Positions 2,211-34,158 of a stretch of DNA of 64,000 bases are shown in pieces; the stretch's first letter is position 1, and each line of letters begins with the position of its first letter. The notes below the pieces were generated by a model, which had not been told where the DNA came from, did not search any database, and saw only the letters and a list, made by a program, of their open reading frames with translations. The stretch is taken from the IMG/VR virus record IMGVR_UViG_3300020045_001640, positions 1 to 64,000 of that record, one strand, 5' to 3'. This stretch comes from a virus (taxonomy: Duplodnaviria > Caudoviricetes). The translations under genes were made by a program, and so were the position numbers.

Positions 2211-2491
2211 TATTTGTTCTCCTTATTAGCCACAGCATCCACACAATCATTCCACCCTCGCACATATCCGTGAGCATCTGCACCCATGCCTGCTTGTGAC
2301 ATACTGATGTAGGCTGGAGGCAGTGCTTGTATTTCACGCATTGCAACAAGAATCCGGCGAGCGACTTCTGAACTAATGTGTTTGTCAATTGTCCCAACAA
2401 CCTTCTCATAAGCCTCTTGAGCATGGAGAGGGCTTGCGCCCCTGTAGTCCATCATCAACTCGTGGAAATAGAATTCTGTGTCAATTGTCAT
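2210..2491 (-). CDS. hypothetical protein (MTIDTEFY...)
   Basis: ATG 2491 overlaps the end of the upstream peptide gene. Confidence 0.65.
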   Translation of the reverse strand: MTIDTEFYFHELMMDYRGASPLHAQEAYEKVVGTIDKHISSEVARRILVAMREIQALPPAYISMSQAGMGADAHGYVRGWNDCVDAVANKENK

Positions 2492-2582
2492 CACAACCAC
2501 CCGTCCCAATCATAGAAGCTACCAGCAATGGCACGCCAATAAATATTACAAGTGCTACAACGATAGCTAACAGAATACCCAT
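2481..2582 (-). CDS. 33-aa single-TM peptide MGILLAIVVALVIFIGVPLLVASMIGTGGCDDN
   Basis: Read by hand; SD-like AAGGTG; first ORF after the 2615-2643 promoter. Confidence 0.65.
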   Translation of the reverse strand: MGILLAIVVALVIFIGVPLLVASMIGTGGCDDN

Positions 2583-2614
2583 TAATCTTCACCTTATTGT
2601 TTAAGAACAGACAC

Positions 2615-2643
2615 ATCATAGACTAAAATCAATCTTCTAACAA
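2615..2643 (-). promoter_or_regulatory. sigma70-like promoter TTGTTA-17-TATGAT
   Basis: Hexamers at 2643-2638 and 2620-2615. Confidence 0.55.
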
Positions 2644-2646
2644 GTC

Positions 2647-2675
2647 TTGACACAACTCAATTCGGCCTCCATACT
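2647..2675 (+). promoter_or_regulatory. sigma70-like promoter TTGACA-17-CATACT
   Basis: Hexamers at 2647-2652 and 2670-2675; back-to-back with the minus-strand promoter. Confidence 0.55.
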
Positions 2676-2681
2676 GAACAC

Positions 2682-2804
2682 ATGTTGAAGCGTGGCAACA
2701 AGCTTGCAACAGAGAACGTAGAGCCACACAGAAACATTCCCCGTAACAAGGCCATGTTAGCTAACACGCACACGGTAGAATCCCTGCCAACAAAATACCT
2801 CTAG
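2682..2804 (+). CDS. possible leaderless 40-aa peptide (MLKRGNKLATENVEP...)
   Basis: ATG 6 nt after the -10 box, no SD; could instead be a small RNA. Confidence 0.35.
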   Translation: MLKRGNKLATENVEPHRNIPRNKAMLANTHTVESLPTKYL

Positions 2805-2891
2805 ATAGCCTATGTAAAATGTTGGCAGAGCACCTGTCAAAATGGCATTAGCGTTTGTAATCGGAATCCGAAATTTCCTATTCGAGATTTA

Positions 2892-3278
2892 TCAGCCACG
2901 CCCATCGAACATTTCTTGCAAGCTCAACAATGTGTTGTAAGCATCTTCTGACAATTCGCTACCTGTGAGCTTGTTGAATGCTGCTAGAATATCTTCATCA
3001 GAGAGCTTGCCAATTTTATCCGGCCTAGAGGGCTTACAAGCTGGCATTGCCGGAGCAGGGCGTGTGGGTGCTGGCAAGATGGTGTCAACGGGTGTGTGAT
3101 ACCGCCAGTGAGTAATGTCATGCCCGTTTCCGTCTATGTTCCAATGGTAAGCATCTGCACGATGACGTTCATCTATCTCACCACTCTCCCACAGAGTATC
3201 AATCCACTCCGTTGTGCGTGGCCTTGTGCCATCATTAGCAGTCCAAGCACTCTCATTCTTCCAAGCTTCTGCAATCAT
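2892..3278 (-). CDS. hypothetical protein with Pro-rich linker
   Basis: 128-aa ORF. Confidence 0.7.
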   Translation of the reverse strand: MIAEAWKNESAWTANDGTRPRTTEWIDTLWESGEIDERHRADAYHWNIDGNGHDITHWRYHTPVDTILPAPTRPAPAMPACKPSRPDKIGKLSDEDILAAFNKLTGSELSEDAYNTLLSLQEMFDGRG

Positions 3279-14491: not shown

Positions 14492-15091
14492 ATGAGTAGA
14501 GTTGTAAAGGACTTTAAGAATGATAGTGGCCTATGGATGAAAACATATACCACTGAACAAGGCAAGTTCACAACATTATCTGGCATGGTGTGGCAGGATA
14601 TGCTCACTCGCTGTAAGGTAGGAAGTAGATTTCAAGAGAAACATCCAACCTATATTGGTTGCAGCGTCTCAGATGAATTTAAGAACTTCCAAGCATTCAC
14701 AGAGTGGCATACCACACAGGTAGGCTATGGCTTCACAAATTACCAGTTAGACAAGGATATCCTATCTGATGGTAATAAAGTGTACAGCAGAGATTACTGC
14801 GTACTTGTTCCTCGACAGTTAAATACCTTCTTGATTGCGTGTGATTCTACAAGAGGCGAATGGCCGCAAGGTGTGCATTACGAGAAAAGCTCAGGTAAGT
14901 TTAAAGCGCAGATCAGCATTTCAGGCGTTAAGAAGAGTATTGGCAGGTACGCTACACCTGAACTCGCACATGAATCTTACAAAATTGCGAAGGAATCTGA
15001 GGCTATCCGCTGGCACCACCGCCTAACGTCTGGTGAATTCGTTGTAGACGTGCGTGTAGTAGACCGTATGCTGAATTGGATATACACGTAA
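14492..15091 (+). CDS. free-standing HNH-like/AP2 homing endonuclease
   Basis: W.DML.RC, LDKDIL..GNKVYS..C, AP2-like GV..KFKAQI; paralog of 28947..29549. Confidence 0.75.
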   Translation: MSRVVKDFKNDSGLWMKTYTTEQGKFTTLSGMVWQDMLTRCKVGSRFQEKHPTYIGCSVSDEFKNFQAFTEWHTTQVGYGFTNYQLDKDILSDGNKVYSRDYCVLVPRQLNTFLIACDSTRGEWPQGVHYEKSSGKFKAQISISGVKKSIGRYATPELAHESYKIAKESEAIRWHHRLTSGEFVVDVRVVDRMLNWIYT

Positions 15092-25622: not shown

Positions 25623-25894
25623 CAGAAGATTGGACTAAAGAATTTGAAGAGGCTCAAGCCAATCTTCCTGTAACTCTCGCTAAGATTGATGCTGTGATTG
25701 CACGGATTAAAGAGGAACTGGCAACTTACGAAACACCAAAGACTTTCAGTTTTGTCGTTAAGCTGGAACACTACAGAAAGTGGATGACACTATTTCACTT
25801 CAAGTCAAAGCGTCAATGGCGAGAGGCTAGGAAAGCTTTTGGGGGGGATAAGGCTAAGTGGATTGCTTGGAAGGAGTCTGCTGGTGACCGCTAA
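25619..25894 (+). CDS. hypothetical protein
   Basis: ATGA overlap. Confidence 0.65.
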   Translation: MTEDWTKEFEEAQANLPVTLAKIDAVIARIKEELATYETPKTFSFVVKLEHYRKWMTLFHFKSKRQWREARKAFGGDKAKWIAWKESAGDR

Positions 25895-26429
25895 GAAAAC
25901 TAAAGCACCACTCGTGCGTTGCAATGGCACAATGACAGAATCACAATACCTCTCATGGATTCGATCAGCACTACGTAGCAAGTCTCTAAGTTGGAAACCT
26001 CGCCAGAAAGCACTTGAAATGGCAAGACGACCTTACAAGGGGCCGAACAAGCTTCAGAAATGGGAGTACGCTTGTGCCATTTGTGGGGAGTGGCATAAGG
26101 CTAAAGATGTGATAGTTGACCACTGGCCTATTGCTGCGGGTAGTATTCTTCACACAGACGACATTGGCCCTTTCGCTAACAACTTGTACTGTGAGGTGGA
26201 GAATCTTAGAGTGTTGGATAAGGTGTGCCACGACATACACACCCTTTCAGAAGCTCATAGTATTAGTTGGGAACAAGCCACGGTACTGAAGAAAGTGATC
26301 GAAGTAGAGAAGACTCACAAGCCTGATAAAATCATTGCAATGCTGAAAGAAGCAAACTATAATGATGTGAGCAACAAGGATAAGAGGCGAGTAGCCTTGA
26401 CAGAGATGTTTACAAAGGAGAGTAAGTGA
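25884..26429 (+). CDS. HNH-fold endonuclease (possible resolvase-like core gene)
   Basis: C..C, VDH, NL.VL.K.CH; SD AAGGAG then GTG. Confidence 0.75.
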   Translation: MTAKKTKAPLVRCNGTMTESQYLSWIRSALRSKSLSWKPRQKALEMARRPYKGPNKLQKWEYACAICGEWHKAKDVIVDHWPIAAGSILHTDDIGPFANNLYCEVENLRVLDKVCHDIHTLSEAHSISWEQATVLKKVIEVEKTHKPDKIIAMLKEANYNDVSNKDKRRVALTEMFTKESK

Positions 26430-28403: not shown

Positions 28404-28950
28404 AGTGCTGTCCCTTCGGGATGTACGAAAGGCTTCTTGGCTTGCTCAATACAACGAAGTGAGTTTGTTATCAATTGATCGTGATGAAGAAGTGTGGCGA
28501 GTGCTATCTGAAGTGGGGTTTGACCCAGATTATGGCTATGAGTACTTTGCTTGTAACCATCGTGACATGTCGGGCTTAGTAGGTATCGGGTATGTTGTGG
28601 CTGGCAGCATGAGCCTCAACCGTAAGCACCTTTCCAGTGTTTACGCAGACCTAACCGACATTATGATAGCCGCAAGTTATCAAGACCCATCTCTTGCACG
28701 AGAGCTGGGAGAGCTTAGTGGGAAACAGAGGAGTTACGATCACTCGCACAGTTTGGAGGAAGAATCGGAGAAGCTTGCTAAAGAGTTGATTGAACCTACA
28801 TGGGGAAGTGTTGAGTATCAGATTAAGGAGTTAAATGATTTGTGCTTTCATATTCGAGGGAGTGCTTTCAATTCTGCCGGGAGTTTAAAGACAATGAATG
28901 AGTACAAGCAGTTTGCACAAGAACAAGTCTCACAGAAAGGAAAACAGTGA
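28393..28950 (+). CDS. conserved-looking hypothetical protein
   Basis: 185-aa packed ORF. Confidence 0.7.
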   Translation: MPSKVLSLRDVRKASWLAQYNEVSLLSIDRDEEVWRVLSEVGFDPDYGYEYFACNHRDMSGLVGIGYVVAGSMSLNRKHLSSVYADLTDIMIAASYQDPSLARELGELSGKQRSYDHSHSLEEESEKLAKELIEPTWGSVEYQIKELNDLCFHIRGSAFNSAGSLKTMNEYKQFAQEQVSQKGKQ

Positions 28951-29549
28951 GTGTTGTAGAGGATTACAAAGGTGCAAATGGGAAATGGGTAGGCGCTAAA
29001 AGGATTGCAGAGGGAATTGTCCAAACAAGGTCTTATGTCCGGTGGGGCAATATGCGACTACGGTGTAAAGTTGGTGGAGCGGAGCAACAGCGTCGTCCCA
29101 CTTATGTAGGCTGTACAATGTCCTCCCTTTTCTCTGATTTTCAGACCTTCACGGATTGGCACGTAACTCAAGTAGGCTACGGTTTACCTTGTTACGATAT
29201 GGATAAAGATATTCTTGTGCATGGAAACAAGGAGTACAACGAAAAGGTTTGTGTGCTTGTGCCGAAGGCGTTAAATGCGTTTCTAACATCTCACGATGCT
29301 GCCAGAGGAGACTACCCACAAGGAGTGAACTTTCATAAGCGGGTGCAGAAGTTTGCTGCAATGGTCAGTAGTGACAGCCATAGAATACACTTAGGATACT
29401 TCACAACACCGGAAGCAGCTTCAGTCGCATACAAAGAGGCAAAAGAAGTTGAATCGCACAAATGGTATGAACGTCTTAAAGCTGGTGAATTCGCAGTTGA
29501 CCCTCGTGTAATCGAGCGTATGCGTACTTGGACTTTTGAAAACAATTAA
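28947..29549 (+). CDS. free-standing HNH-like/AP2 homing endonuclease
   Basis: MR.RC, MDKDIL..GNKEY...C, AP2-like C-terminus; ends 12 nt before the RNR start. Confidence 0.75.
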   Translation: MSVVEDYKGANGKWVGAKRIAEGIVQTRSYVRWGNMRLRCKVGGAEQQRRPTYVGCTMSSLFSDFQTFTDWHVTQVGYGLPCYDMDKDILVHGNKEYNEKVCVLVPKALNAFLTSHDAARGDYPQGVNFHKRVQKFAAMVSSDSHRIHLGYFTTPEAASVAYKEAKEVESHKWYERLKAGEFAVDPRVIERMRTWTFENN

Positions 29550-29560
29550 CAGGGAACAGA

Positions 29561-32027
29561 ATGAAAGATATCAGCGCAAGTAAATTAATGTCGGATGTGA
29601 AGTTTTACGGTGACTACTCTCGTTACGACGATACTTCCCATCAGTACGAGACATGGGAGCAATCAGTTGAGCGAGTAATGCAAATGCACTACACAAAGTA
29701 CGCGGCTCAGATGACACCGGCACTTCAAGTGTTCATGGGAGATATTCAGACTGCTTACTCACAGAAACAACTATTAGGTGCACAGCGAGCACTACAGTTT
29801 GGTGGAGCACAGTTGCTTAAGAAACATGCAAAGATGTACAATTGTGTTTCCAGTTATGTAGATCGTCCTGAGTTCTTTGGGGAGTATATGTGGCTAATGC
29901 TTTGTGGCTGCGGTGCAGGCTTCAGTGTACAGAAGCAACACATTGCCAAGTTGCCTAATGTCCAGCAACGCACCAAGGCAGCGAAGAAGTTTGTAGTTCC
30001 TGATTCAATTGAAGGTTGGGCACAAGCGTTCGATGTACTCTTTAGTTCTTTCTTTGTTGGTGGCGGCAAACATCCAGAGTATGAGAAACACCCTGTTTGG
30101 TTTGACTTGAGTCAAGTACGACCAAAAGGCTCTGAAATCTCTGGTGGCTTCAAGGCTCCTGGGCCTGAACCATTGCAGTATGCTCTGGCTAAGGTGGAGA
30201 AATTGTTGAGCAAGGCAGGAAGCCGCCTCAAATCAATTGACGTGTATGATGCTTGTATGTATCAAGCAGATGCAGTAATCTCTGGTGGTGTCCGTCGAAG
30301 TGCCACTATCTGCCTCTTCTCAAAAGATGATGAGGAAATGATTAAGGCTAAGACGGGTAATTGGTTCCAAGAGAATCCTCAACGAGGTCGTAGCAATAAC
30401 AGTGTGATGTTGAAGCGAGATGAATTGACAGCAGCGGAGTTTGCTGCCATTATGAAGTCTGTTGAGCAATGTGGTGAGCCAGGATTTATCTTCACAGATA
30501 ATTTGGAGTTTACATTTAATCCGTTGACAATACTAGCGGCCTAAGAGAGGAATCTCTTTTGAATAATCCGAATTTCGGGGGAAGCGTAGAACACGTAATC
30601 CCGACGCAACACTGACTTGAAAGAGTTATAGAGGCGCGAGAGACTGACAAGGAAGCAGAGAACCTGCTGTGATACAGTCCGTTCTGTATGGGGACATACA
30701 GAGATTGGCAGAAATGACCAATCCCCGCACAATGCGGAGTAACAATAAAGGTGTAGAAATCGGGATGTTGCCTGTTACGGCTGATGGTCGTAGTGGCTGG
30801 CAGGGCTGTAACTTGGCAGAGATTAATGGTGGGAAGTGTACGACACCAGAGTTGTTCTACGAGGCTTGCCGTGTAGCTTCAGCACTGTGTACGTTGCAAG
30901 CTGGATATACAGACTTTGAGTTTCTTAGTGCAGCTTCTAAGGAAATCTTTGATCGTGAAGCATTGATTGGTGTGTCGATTACAGGTTGGATGAACAATCC
31001 TCAAGTGCTGTTTGATGAGGAAGTGCTGCGCAAGGGTGCTCAGATTGTCAAGGATGTGAACAAGGAAGTTGCTGCCATTATAGGTATTAACCAGGCTGCT
31101 CGCACGACTTGCGCAAAGCCAAGTGGCAACGCTTCTGTATTGCTTGGGACAGCTTCAGGTATTCATGGAGAGCATTCACCACGTTACTTGCGCCATGTGC
31201 AGATGAACAATGAAGTGGAAGTGCTGAACACTTTCAAGAGTATGTATCCAGAGATGGTAGAAGACTCTGTGTGGAGCACGAACGGGACAGACAGTGTTAT
31301 CGCTTTCCCGATCATCACTAAGGAAGGCTCTGTTTACAAGGCTGACTTGTTAGGTGTGAAGCAACTTGAGTATGTGAAGAAGGCACAGCAAGTGTGGGTA
31401 GAGGAAGGTACTAACGTTGAGCTTTGTGCTGACCCTAAGCTGCGACACAATATCAGTAATACGATTAGTGTTGATAGCTGGCCTGATGTGACAAACTATC
31501 TGTACGAGAATCGTCAATGGTTCTGTGGTGTGTCGCTCATGGCTGCTTCAGGAGACAAAGCTTTTCCACAAGCTCCGTTCACGGAAGTCTTGACAGAGAA
31601 GCAGATTGTGAAGAAGTATGGTGCAGCAGCATTGTTTGCAGCAGGATTGGTTACTCGTGCCCTAGATGCTTTCGGTGACTTGTGGAAGGCTACTTCTTGT
31701 GCAATGGGCTACGGTGAAGACATTTCTAAAGAGTGTCATGAAACTGTAGCGAAGCGTGATTGGGTGCGACAGTTTAAGAAGTTTGCCAAGAATCACTTCC
31801 CGCAGGATTGTAACAAGAACTCTGCCGAGTTGCTTGGTATGGAAGCTGGGGATTTGAACAAGACAGGTGACTGCTTGAAAGATGTGTATAATCTACACAA
31901 GTGGACTAAGATTGCTAACAACATGCCAAACATTGACATTCGTGAGCATCTGAAGCGTAAGCAGTTTGTAGATGTGGGAACACTGGCAGGGGCCGCATGT
32001 GCCGGTGGACAATGCGAAATCTTCTAA
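29561..32027 (+). CDS. nrdJ: ribonucleotide reductase catalytic subunit, join(29561..30524,30751..32027), 746 aa; most like class II/RTPR type (class tentative)
   Basis: YNC, RRSA, SNNS, restored NPCVEI, KPSGN, C-terminal CAGGQC. Confidence 0.85.
30525..30750 (+). ncRNA. group I self-splicing intron, 226 nt, no ORF
   Basis: Exon ends in U and intron ends in G; P1 ccgU/Gcgg; P element aatttcgggggaa; P7 gactg(30642-30646)/cagtc within gatacagtcc; GNRA hairpins; removal restores the frame and Cys. Confidence 0.9.
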
Positions 32028-33585: not shown

Positions 33586-34158
33586 ATGGTGAATTTTGTG
33601 GATCATTTCTACTATGATCCGTCTAGTCCGAGTTGTATTCGTCGCAAGTTACCTGTTCTGGTAGGAAGGCTTAAAACGAGCGTGAAATACGCAGCAAACA
33701 CTGAAGTAGGACACTTATCCTCAGACGGGTACTGGGTGACTAGTTTGAATTGGGAGGATTTCGATGTACACAACATCGTGTACTTACTACACAACCCTAC
33801 AATCCCTTCAAATTGGGAAGTAGATCACATAGATGGTAATAATTCTAACAACCTTATAGAAAATCTTCGGTGTGTCCCGCACGACATCAACTGTCGTAAT
33901 CGCTCAATGTACTCCACGAACTCCACAGGTGTGACAGGTGTTTGTTGGATCGAAAAGGTTAACATTGGACATCCACTGAAGATGCTGTATGCCGTTGCAC
34001 AATGTCGGAGTTTGGAAGGTAAAGTTGTTGGTCGTTGTTTCTCTGTAAAGAAGTACGGGCTTATGCCAGCTTTTAAGAGGGCTTGCGACTGTAGGGCTGA
34101 CATGATTGCCTCGCTAAACGCACAAGGGGCTGACTACACAGACCGTCATGGCAAGTAG
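33586..34158 (+). CDS. HNH_3/AP2 homing endonuclease
   Basis: H.IV..LH, VDHIDGN..NN.IENLR...N.RN, NSTGVTGV. Confidence 0.85.
   Translation: MVNFVDHFYYDPSSPSCIRRKLPVLVGRLKTSVKYAANTEVGHLSSDGYWVTSLNWEDFDVHNIVYLLHNPTIPSNWEVDHIDGNNSNNLIENLRCVPHDINCRNRSMYSTNSTGVTGVCWIEKVNIGHPLKMLYAVAQCRSLEGKVVGRCFSVKKYGLMPAFKRACDCRADMIASLNAQGADYTDRHGK

What the first reader, a model, noticed from the sequence alone, without database searches (positions are those of the whole stretch)
30525..30750. Minimal ORF-less group I intron splitting the catalytic Cys codon of the ribonucleotide reductase
Seen: the RNR breaks into two ORFs. Joining 30524 to 30751 gives AAT CCG T|GT GTA GAA ATC = N-P-C-V-E-I and a continuous 746-aa protein. 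The 226-nt insert follows a U, ends in G, and has a P1 helix (ccgU pairing with Gcgg, U-G at the splice site). It also has P/Q/R/S-like elements (aatttcgggggaa; aatcccgacgc; gagagactga; gatacagtcc) and GAAA/GGGA-capped hairpins. Established: the Cys in NPCxE is the thiyl-radical residue of RNRs, and phage group I introns occur in nucleotide-metabolism genes. Inference: dNTP synthesis depends on splicing, and unspliced mRNA would yield a dead 327-aa fragment. Automated annotation would call two genes here.
Basis: partly seen in the sequence, partly recalled or inferred. Interest (0 to 1): 0.8.

Follow-up and report, generated by a model that had tools for sequence, protein, structure and literature searches.

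The report
Compact group I intron in phage RNR
A 226-base intron of the group I (self-splicing) type sits inside the codon for the essential radical-forming cysteine of a phage ribonucleotide reductase; it belongs to a compact phage intron family that the standard Rfam model misses, but it is a well-known kind of element in a well-known kind of gene.

Summary
Window 30525-30750 is a 226-nt insert that splits a class II (RTPR-like) ribonucleotide reductase. Joining 30524 to 30751 restores F-N-P-C-V-E-I-G and a 746-aa protein colinear with intronless relatives.

The interpretation as an ORF-less group I intron is supported, although Rfam RF00028 gives no hit even at E<=10.
- **Homologous inserts:** 11 further distinct ones lie at the same NP|C site of phage RNR genes; with one from a second site and the window's, 13 were aligned.
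- **Covariation:** a sequence-only alignment of the 13 supports P1-P9.2, including the P3/P7 pseudoknot. 88% of cells are paired, 43 of 60 pairs change on both sides, and 0 of 500 shuffles reach this.
- **Splice sites:** the U·G at the 5' splice site and the terminal G are invariant.
- **Link to accepted introns:** a model built from the family also finds RF00028-positive introns, including the S-PM2 psbA intron.

The core resembles phage IA2 introns but has no P7.1/P7.2. The window intron is 83-86% identical to one in an RNR only 24-30% identical in protein, while the closest RNR relative (76%) has no intron. This indicates horizontal spread. Two orthologs carry inteins at the same cysteine.

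Splicing itself is untested. This is a new member of a known kind, of moderate interest.

The parts
29561..30524 (+). RNR exon 1: 321 codons plus the first base (U) of the Cys codon. It ends ...TTT AAT CCG T.
   Evidence: PHROG 367 positions 41-370, TIGR02505, Pfam PF21995.
30525..30750 (+). 226-nt ORF-less group I intron.
   Evidence: Structure. Family model R1 scores 244 bits, and this is the only copy in the 81-kb genome.
30521..30539 (+). P1. Exon CCGU plus intron U (30521-30525) pair with AGCGG (30535-30539). U30524.G30536 is the wobble pair at the 5' splice site. The L1 loop is 30526-30534.
   Evidence: helix 1: 100% paired in 13/13, U.G invariant, two pairs with changes on both sides.
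30542..30544 (+). In-frame UAA, 18 nt into the intron, just 3' of P1. It ends translation of unspliced mRNA after 327 aa.
   Evidence: The same J1/2 stop is the first in-frame stop in 10 of 13 family members.
30543..30558 (+). P2: AAGAGA/UCUCUU with a GGAA tetraloop.
   Evidence: helix 2: 100% paired, all 6 pairs change on both sides.
30567..30569 (+). P3 5' strand (UCC). It pairs with GGA at 30651-30653 and forms a pseudoknot with P7.
   Evidence: helix 3: 100% paired, C:G 9 and U:A 4 at one pair. C:G 12 and U:A 5 in the wider family. The alternative UUUUG/CAAGG was rejected because its 5' strand is not conserved.
30575..30604 (+). P4 (UCGGG 30575-30579 / CCCGA 30600-30604) enclosing P5 (GCGU 30584-30587 / ACGU 30593-30596). 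The junctions J4/5 and J5/4 are A-rich.
   Evidence: helices 4 and 5: 100% and 94% paired, 8 of 9 pairs change on both sides. BLAST-level similarity to the P4-P5 of the RF00028-positive intron of phage W70.
30605..30636 (+). P6 (CGC/GCG) with P6a (GACUU/GAGUU, GAAA loop).
   Evidence: helix 6: 100% paired, 3 of 3 pairs covary. P6a is variable in the family and rests on the MFE fold.
30642..30679 (+). It encloses J7/3 ACAA, the P3 3' strand GGA (30651-30653) and P8 (AGCAG 30654-30658 / CUGCU 30664-30668). There is no room for P7.1/P7.2.
   Evidence: helix 10 (P7) is 100% paired with G:C<->A:U at the last pair; helix 11 (P8) has 5 of 5 pairs covarying. for the missing P7.1/P7.2.
30682..30737 (+). 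P9 (9 bp, GGGA loop, 30682-30703), P9.1 (AUUGG/CCAAU, loop containing the conserved motif CAGAAAUGA, 30704-30722) and P9.2 (CCGCA/UGCGG, 30725-30737).
   Evidence: helices 12-14. P9-P9.2 is 85% identical to the capsid-gene intron of Lysinibacillus phage LysYB1. P9.2 is poorly aligned in A2 and rests.
30750..30750 (+). Terminal G (omega G) at the 3' splice site, preceded by the conserved AGUAACAA.
   Evidence: G in 13/13.
30751..32027 (+). RNR exon 2. It starts with GU (the rest of the Cys codon), then VEIGMLP...; the stop is at 32025-32027.
   Evidence: The GTG at 30669 that opens the mechanical ORF lies inside the intron (J8/7, just 3' of P8).
28947..29549 (+). Free-standing HNH endonuclease gene ending 12 nt before the RNR start. 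It is a candidate trans-acting homing partner, which is not shown.
   Evidence: PHROG 953, E 5.5e-50. Absent from the intronless relative L004. No such gene next to the KLEP7 RNR.

Best explanation
Window 30525-30750 is a group I intron that is predicted to splice itself and carries no ORF. It lies after the first base of the Cys codon in the N-P-C-x-E active-site motif of a phage adenosylcobalamin-type (RTPR-like, monomeric class II) ribonucleotide reductase.

**Predicted mechanism (by analogy, not tested).** The RNA folds into P1-P2, P4-P6, and P3-P7-P8-P9 with P9.1 and P9.2. An external guanosine bound at P7 attacks after U30524 in the P1 U.G pair. The freed exon end then attacks after G30750. 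This joins U to GU and recreates the UGU cysteine codon and a 746-aa enzyme. Unspliced mRNA is translated only to the UAA at 30542-30544, giving a 327-aa fragment without the catalytic cysteine.

**Family.** The intron belongs to a compact phage family. Its core sequences resemble phage IA2 introns, but it has no P7.1/P7.2, a 3-4 bp P3, and GNRA loops on P2 and P9. Eleven further distinct RNR-gene members sit at this same codon, and the family has moved horizontally between very different RNR genes.

**Shown:** position, exact codon restoration, covarying secondary structure, homology to accepted group I introns, and horizontal distribution.

**Inferred:** catalytic activity, dependence of phage dNTP supply on splicing, and the mode of mobility.
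For: - **Colinearity.** Exons are colinear with intronless homologs L001, L004, L006 and L007. The join gives FNPCVEIG.
- **Homologous inserts.** One is at the same site in GenBank phage KLEP7. Twelve IMG/VR loci (11 distinct; L015 and L018 are identical) also carry one, found with a core pattern.
- **Covariation.** In the MAFFT-only alignment of 13 introns, 88.4% of cells pair against 72.8% when shuffled. 43 of 60 pairs change on both sides, and 0 of 500 shuffles reach this. Sliding the partners drops pairing to 32-42%. P1, P2, P3, P4, P6 and P7 are 100% paired.
- **Thermodynamic fold.** The MFE fold independently recovers P1, P2, P5, P6/P6a, P7, P8, P9, P9.1 and P9.2, and most of P4; it does not show the P3 pseudoknot (z = -4.57).
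- **Splice sites.** U.G at the 5' splice site and the terminal G occur in 13/13.
- **Link to accepted introns.** Model R1 also hits RF00028-positive introns:
  - phage W70 primase/helicase: 44.6 bits
  - LysYB1 capsid gene: 37.8 bits
  - Alicyclobacillus phage: 59 bits
  - S-PM2 psbA: 28.3 bits, E 8.5e-9, against 87.8 bits with RF00028
- **Horizontal spread.** The window intron is 83-86% identical to that of L041, depending on the alignment, whose RNR is 24-30% identical in protein. In the intron tree it nests in a clade (98/94 support) of introns from the other RNR lineage. KLEP7's intron nests in a different clade (100/99 support). The closest RNR relative, L004 (76% aa identity), has no intron.
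- **In-frame stop.** A stop just 3' of P1 is the first in-frame stop in 10 of 13 members.
Against: - Rfam RF00028 gives no hit on the window at gathering score, nor at E<=10 on 600 nt.
- P3 is only 3 bp in the window copy.
- P7.1/P7.2, which buttress related phage IA2 introns, are absent. Activity may therefore need high Mg2+ or a protein helper.
- No transcript or splicing data exist for this uncultured virus.
- P10 is weak and ambiguous (AUAC/GUGU at best; my reading).
- The structure string was derived from the window sequence, which by itself favours the 0-slide control.
Confidence: 0.9

Rival explanations
1. It is a decayed group I intron that no longer splices, so the RNR is a pseudogene or non-functional in this phage.
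For: - RF00028 does not score it.
- It has a short P3 and no P7.1/P7.2.
- It has no homing endonuclease ORF, as expected late in the homing cycle.
Against: - In the window copy every modelled pair of P1-P9.2 is a standard pair.
- The same compact architecture is kept, with compensatory changes, in 13 diverged copies.
- Both exons are intact, without frameshift or stop, and 76% identical to L004 along their whole length.
Confidence: 0.06
2. It is a genes-in-pieces RNR. The two ORFs would be translated separately and assemble into an active enzyme, as in Aeromonas phage Aeh1 NrdA; the insert would be only a spacer.
For: - Split, still functional phage RNRs exist (described in PMC3653736, read).
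- A mechanical ORF with a GTG start at 30669 covers the second half.
Against: - The split falls inside the codon of the cysteine, so neither fragment would contain it. Fragment 1 ends ...FNPLTILAA and fragment 2 would start inside intron sequence.
- The spacer has a conserved, covarying group I fold.
Confidence: 0.02
3. It is read through by a translational event (ribosome hop or bypass, or frameshifting) rather than by RNA splicing.
For: The only support is the precedent of T4 gene 60 bypassing, from my own knowledge. Nothing was tested here.
Against: - A 226-nt gap is far beyond known bypass lengths.
- There are no matched take-off and landing codons.
- The structure is that of a ribozyme core shared with introns in unrelated genes.
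Confidence: 0.01

Closest known systems
Phage group I introns in ribonucleotide reductase genes (T4 nrdB and nrdD, Twort nrdE, SPbeta bnrdE/bnrdF, Brochothrix A9 nrdE/nrdF)
   Same: A group I intron in a phage RNR gene, at a highly conserved functional site. RNR is reported as the phage gene most often interrupted by introns (PMC3653736).
   Different: Those are in class I or class III genes and are mostly IA2 with P7.1/P7.2, often with an endonuclease ORF. This one is in a monomeric class II (RTPR-like) gene, is ORF-less, lacks P7.1/P7.2 and is not scored by RF00028.
S-PM2 cyanophage psbA intron with the neighbouring free-standing endonuclease F-CphI (collaborative homing)
   Same: A short ORF-less phage group I intron. 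Model R1 finds it at E 8.5e-9. The GenBank record shows the F-CphI gene right next to psbA. The window likewise has an HNH gene ending 12 nt before the intron-bearing RNR.
   Different: The host gene is different. The S-PM2 intron scores 87.8 bits with RF00028, whereas the window intron scores nothing. The S-PM2 endonuclease is annotated endonuclease VII and lies downstream; the window's is HNH-type and lies upstream. Cleavage of the intronless RNR site by the window HNH is untested, and KLEP7 has the intron without such a neighbour.
Group I intron in the class II RNR gene of Nostoc punctiforme (Meng et al. 2007, cited in PMC2853384 and PMC12702839)
   Same: A group I intron in an adenosylcobalamin-dependent RNR gene.
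   Different: It is in a cellular (cyanobacterial) gene and carries an IS element. The paper is not held here, so I could not compare its insertion site or sequence.
Inteins at the RNR catalytic cysteine (intron-intein coincidence, Derbyshire & Belfort 1998)
   Same: Orthologs L008 and L010 carry LAGLIDADG inteins whose +1 residue is this same cysteine. The DNA insertion point is 1 nt from that of the intron, and identical to that of the L015 intron.
   Different: These are protein-splicing elements, not RNA-splicing elements, and they have their own endonuclease domain.
Azoarcus tRNA-Ile intron (IC3), the textbook minimal group I intron
   Same: Similar size (205 vs 226 nt) and a similar design, with GNRA tetraloops on P2 and P9 and no P5abc or P7.1/P7.2. 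This comparison is from my own knowledge.
   Different: The core sequences (P4, J8/7-P7, P9-P9.1) resemble phage IA2-type introns at BLAST level, not IC3. The host is a protein-coding gene.

Membership tests
Group I intron | P1 helix formed by the end of the 5' exon and an internal guide sequence, with a U.G wobble at the 5' splice site | tested here: met
   CCGU+U / AGCGG. U.G in 13/13 homologs, helix 100% paired, two pairs with compensatory change.
Group I intron | Intron ends in G (omega G) | tested here: met
   G30750. G in 13/13.
Group I intron | Conserved core P3-P8 with P4 (P/Q) and P7 (R/S) and the P3/P7 pseudoknot, in the canonical order | tested here: met
   All helices are in canonical order. 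P3, P4, P6 and P7 are 100% paired with covariation. R/S sequences AGAGACUG and GAUACAGUCC match the RF00028 consensus AGACUA and GAUAUAGUC seen.
Group I intron | Score at or above the gathering threshold of Rfam RF00028 | tested here: not met
   No hit at gathering score, nor at E<=10. The same holds for 7 other compact members. Family model R1 nevertheless hits RF00028-positive introns at E 1e-9 to 1e-16.
Group I intron | Excision restores an uninterrupted, conserved reading frame | tested here: met
   The join gives a 746-aa protein colinear with L004 (746 aa) and with P0003.
Group I intron | Guanosine-dependent self-splicing | not testable with these tools
   Needs in vitro transcription with labelled GTP, or RT-PCR.
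Subgroup IA2 (phage type) | P7.1 and P7.2 hairpins between P7 and the 3' strand of P3 | tested here: not met
   Only ACAA lies between P7 (ends 30646) and P3' (30651). The relatives W70, LysYB1 and the Alicyclobacillus phage have a 40-60 nt insert there.
Subgroup IA2 (phage type) | Sequence kinship of core elements with accepted IA2-type phage introns | tested here: met
   BLAST: P3-P5 is 80% identical to W70, and P7'-P9.2 is 85% identical to LysYB1. R1 cross-hits.
Class II RNR, monomeric RTPR type (host gene) | Best match to the RTPR family model and the B12-RNR insertion domain | tested here: inconclusive
   TIGR02505 is the best hit, but at 176 bits (L004) it is under the 340-bit cutoff. 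Pfam PF21995 passes its cutoff. The only PDB match is 1L1L RTPR.
Class II RNR, monomeric RTPR type (host gene) | Thiyl-radical Cys in N-P-C-x-E, followed by C-N-L (C408 and C419 of L. leichmannii RTPR) | tested here: inconclusive
   The motifs NPCVE and GCNL are invariant in the family. However, HMMER aligns 1L1L C408 to the GCNL cysteine. In the other RNR lineage that carries the same intron (L020: NPCAEQSLASYETCCL), the spacing equals that of 1L1L (NPCGEISLANGEPCNL). This supports the NPC assignment.
Collaborative homing pair (ORF-less intron plus free-standing endonuclease) | The neighbouring endonuclease cleaves the intronless allele at or near the intron insertion site | not testable with these tools
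   Only adjacency is known, together with absence of both elements from L004. KLEP7 has the intron without the neighbour.

The most novel reading that the evidence does not exclude
The window intron would represent a compact phage group I lineage that is invisible to Rfam. This lineage would be specialised on the thiyl-cysteine codon of class II RNRs and would jump between RNR genes that share little beyond the NPC motif. In this phage it would be mobilised in trans by the free-standing HNH endonuclease encoded 12 nt upstream of the RNR gene. That enzyme would cut intronless NPC sites while the intron protects the phage's own gene (collaborative homing at an enzyme active site).
Probability: 0.2. 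Interest if true: 0.55.

Novelty: new member of a known kind. Interest (0 to 1): 0.4.

Why it matters
- **Annotation.** This RNR, and that of GenBank phage KLEP7, are called as two genes, and the usual RF00028 scan does not flag the intron. A model such as R1 would recover a whole set of compact introns in viral metagenomes. The single core pattern found 30 IMG/VR loci, some with three or four introns in a row.
- **Biology.** This is a clean example of three outcomes at one active-site codon in orthologous genes: empty, intron or intein. It also shows intron transfer between RNR genes of under 30% protein identity. This fits the view that selfish splicing elements target the most constrained DNA.
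- **RNA structure.** The family offers small natural ribozymes of 190-265 nt, related to IA2 introns but lacking P7.1/P7.2.

None of this changes the accepted picture of phage introns.

Tried and rejected
- **Rfam.** The scan of the whole window at gathering score, and of 30350-30950 at E<=10, found no group I hit. The three weak hits (SNORD28, a frameshift element and a CRISPR repeat) are noise.
- **Megablast.** Megablast of the RNR region against GenBank phages found nothing.
- **P3 as UUUUG/CAAGG.** This was my first reading. I rejected it because the 5' strand is not conserved in the family and those bases extend P2, while UCC/GGA covaries.
- **Pairing of AUCCG with the 3' strand of P9.2.** I considered this pairing (30566-30570 with CGGA) from two sequences. 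I did not pursue it, because the wider family explains these bases as P3.
- **HNH gene and the intron.** I searched for relatives of the upstream HNH next to intron-bearing RNR genes.
  - IMG/VR gave one unrelated-context hit.
  - GenBank phages gave about 1,180 records with generic free-standing HNH genes.
  - No specific association with the intron could be shown.
- **1L1L alignment.** HMMER alignment to 1L1L, meant to fix the catalytic Cys, gave a register that pairs C408 with the second cysteine. I judge this a gap-placement artefact.
- **Papers not held.** Meng et al. 2007 and Landthaler et al. 2002 are not held. Whether an intron at exactly this codon was described before therefore remains open.
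- **Cellular genomes.** The core pattern hit only 7 contigs, all from MAGs. The family looks mainly viral.
Full report
**Setting.** The window is bases 1-64000 of an 81,082-bp IMG/VR virus record with direct terminal repeats, rated complete. The region around the finding is a nucleotide-metabolism and DNA block on the + strand:
- a DNA methyltransferase
- an HNH endonuclease (25839-26429)
- a metallophosphoesterase
- a nucleotide pyrophosphohydrolase
- a thymidylate-synthase-like ORF
- a second HNH endonuclease (28947-29549)
- the ribonucleotide reductase

**Observation.** The RNR is read as two ORFs, 29561-30544 (327 aa) and 30669-32027.
- Both match PHROG 367, at consecutive parts of the profile.
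- The N-terminal part matches Pfam PF21995, the B12-RNR insertion domain.
- The best NCBIfam model is TIGR02505 (RTPR), below its cutoff.
- The only solved relative is the L. leichmannii RTPR structure 1L1L.

The uninterrupted homolog in Rhizobium phage RHph_I1_18 reads ...TYNPCVEIGKF.... The closest relative is L004, 76% identical in protein. It has one 746-aa ORF with ...FTFNPCVEIGKK.... Joining window 30524 to 30751 gives AAT CCG T|GT GTA GAA ATC, which reads F-N-P-C-V-E-I-G, and 2241 nt, which is 746 codons plus a stop. No other join restores the cysteine codon.

**Is it a group I intron?** Rfam gives nothing, neither at gathering score on the whole window nor at E<=10 on 600 nt. I therefore looked for homologs.
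- GenBank phage KLEP7 has a 230-nt insert at the same codon, annotated as two CDS.
- The core pattern AGAGACTRNCAAGG...TAYAGTCC found 30 IMG/VR loci.
- Twelve of these (11 distinct, since L015 and L018 are identical) lie at the NP|C site of RNR genes.

I aligned 13 introns with MAFFT alone and tested a structure written from the window sequence.
- 88.4% of cells are paired, against 72.8% in shuffles.
- 43 of 60 pairs change on both sides, and 0 of 500 shuffles reach this.
- Pairing falls to 32-42% when the partners are slid.
- P1, P2, P3, P4, P6 and P7 are paired in every sequence. All pairs of P2, P4, P6 and P8 covary.

The U.G at the 5' splice site and the terminal G are invariant. RNAfold on the window sequence alone recovers P1, P2, P5, P6/P6a, P7, P8, P9, P9.1 and P9.2, and most of P4. 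It cannot show the P3 pseudoknot (z = -4.57).

P3 is UCC/GGA (30567-30569 with 30651-30653). It covaries U:A<->C:G across the family. I rejected my first idea, UUUUG/CAAGG.

**Link to accepted group I introns.**
- BLAST finds local similarity of P3-P5 to an insert in the primase/helicase gene of coliphage W70.
- BLAST finds local similarity of P7'-P9.2 to an insert in the capsid gene of Lysinibacillus phage LysYB1.
- These two, and an Alicyclobacillus phage insert, score 58-70 bits with RF00028.
- The family model R1 hits them at 38-59 bits.
- R1 hits the S-PM2 psbA intron at 28 bits, E 8.5e-9. That intron scores 87.8 bits with RF00028.

RF00028 misses all seven other compact members tested. 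The lack of an Rfam hit is therefore a limit of that model and not evidence against an intron.

**Architecture.**
- Between P7 and the 3' strand of P3 there are only four bases (ACAA). The IA2-type relatives carry P7.1/P7.2 there. The intron is kin to phage IA2 introns by sequence but does not meet the IA2 definition.
- It has GNRA loops on P2 (GGAA), P6a (GAAA) and P9 (GGGA).
- The P9.1 loop contains the conserved motif CAGAAAUGA.
- The single-stranded stretches UUGAAUAA (J2/3) and AGUAACAA (before the terminal G) are conserved. I cannot explain their roles.
- An in-frame UAA lies 18 nt into the intron, directly after P1. The same stop is the first in-frame stop in 10 of 13 members, and the L1 loops of those 10 are 6 or 9 nt long. 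Translation of unspliced RNA therefore ends early, before the core.
- R1 finds no second copy in the 81-kb genome.

**Which cysteine?** HMMER alignments to 1L1L place its N406-P-C408-G-E410 opposite the phage GWQGC-N and not opposite NPCVE. I regard this as a register slip for four reasons.
- Under that alignment the essential Asn and Glu would not be conserved.
- The phage family has invariant N-P-C-V-E and, 19 residues later, C-N-L. This matches NPCGE...C419-N-L of 1L1L with a longer spacer.
- The downstream distance from CNL to the IG(V/I)S motif is 52 residues in the phage and 50 in 1L1L (my count).
- The other RNR lineage with the same intron reads NPCAEQSLASYETCCL, with the same spacing as 1L1L.

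The assignment is thus well supported, but it rests on motif logic and not on a structure.

**Mobility.** The window intron is 83-86% identical to the intron of L041 and 80-82% to those of L020, L030 and L032. Their RNRs are also RTPR-like but only 24-31% identical to the window protein. It is only 75% identical to the intron of KLEP7, whose RNR is an ortholog (55-58%).

In an intron tree the window nests, with 98/94 support, among introns from the other RNR lineage. KLEP7 nests, with 100/99 support, in a different clade. At least two changes of host-gene type are forced. L004, L006, L007 and RHph_I1_18 have no intron. This is the pattern of a homing element.

How an ORF-less intron moves is not shown. 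An HNH gene ends 12 nt before the RNR start. It is absent, together with the intron, from L004. This recalls the S-PM2 psbA intron and F-CphI. KLEP7, however, has the intron without such a neighbour, and relatives of this HNH are generic free-standing genes. I give the collaborative-homing reading about 0.2.

**Same site, other elements.** Orthologs L008 and L010 have LAGLIDADG inteins whose +1 residue is this cysteine. The L015 intron sits one base upstream, exactly at the intein position. This RNR family also has insertions near residues 300 and 470. One of these is a group I intron by R1 (L009:2202-2493).

**Comparison with the literature.**
- RNR is the phage gene most often split by group I introns, and inteins are also recorded in it (PMC3653736).
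- Phage introns favour DNA polymerase, RNR and terminase genes (PMC3984707).
- A group I intron in a cyanobacterial class II RNR is on record (cited in PMC2853384 and PMC12702839). I could not read that paper, nor the Twort nrdE paper. I therefore cannot say whether this exact codon was reported before.

**Verdict.** This is a real group I intron by structure and kinship, supported by comparative evidence; splicing itself is untested. It is a new member of a known kind. The useful extras are an Rfam-blind compact family, clear horizontal transfer between distant RNR genes, and intron/intein coincidence at the radical cysteine. Splicing activity, the regulatory consequence and the homing mechanism remain to be tested.

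Noticed in passing
L029:6273-8206 (IMGVR_UViG_3300020570_000137); L046:4839-5747 (Thermodesulfobacteriota MAG contig): There are four R1 hits within 2 kb in L029, and three in tandem in L046. These look like genes packed with several compact group I introns.
   Followed up: no
L008:78-1257 and L010 up to 1068: Orthologs of the window RNR carry LAGLIDADG inteins inserted directly before the same catalytic cysteine. Both match Pfam Intein_splicing and LAGLIDADG_3. L010 ends in the classic ...VYAHN|CVEIG. L008 ends atypically in ...GMTARR|CVEIG.
   Followed up: partly
L038:4669-4858 (- strand): One member of the RNR-intron family is only 190 nt, with no P9.1/P9.2. That is shorter than the 205-nt Azoarcus intron usually quoted as minimal.
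   Followed up: no
L015:10803-11060 (- strand): This family member is inserted one base upstream, between the Pro and Cys codons (CCU|UGU). Its P1 is adapted accordingly (CCCU/GGGG), so the insertion site has shifted by 1 nt.
   Followed up: partly
window 28947-29549, 14501-15085, 25839-26429, 33586-34158: There are four free-standing HNH-type endonuclease genes in the window. The first two are 47% identical paralogs, and the second of these has a weak AP2 domain. The first abuts the RNR start and is missing from the intronless relative L004.
   Followed up: partly
L002 (GenBank OM654377.1, phage KLEP7) 176-2610: The GenBank record annotates the RNR as two separate CDS (gp198, gp197) with no intron feature. 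A homologous 230-nt group I intron lies between them, at L002:1146-1375.
   Followed up: yes
L009:496-1705 and 2223-3136; L008:1661-3001; L010:1449-3001: The same RNR family has further insertions near residues 300 and 470. The L009 element near residue 470 starts with a group I intron (R1 38 bits, L009:2202-2493).
   Followed up: no
window 30560-30566, 30709-30717 and 30738-30745: Three single-stranded stretches are conserved across the family: UUGAAUAA (J2/3), the motif CAGAAAUGA within the P9.1 loop, and AGUAACAA (before the terminal G). No partner was identified. They may make tertiary contacts that replace P7.1/P7.2.
   Followed up: no
L004:2044-4284 versus PDB 1L1L: Both phmmer and hmmsearch align the catalytic NPCGE of 1L1L to the second cysteine (GCNL) of the phage RNR. 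This register slip could mislead automated active-site transfer.
   Followed up: partly
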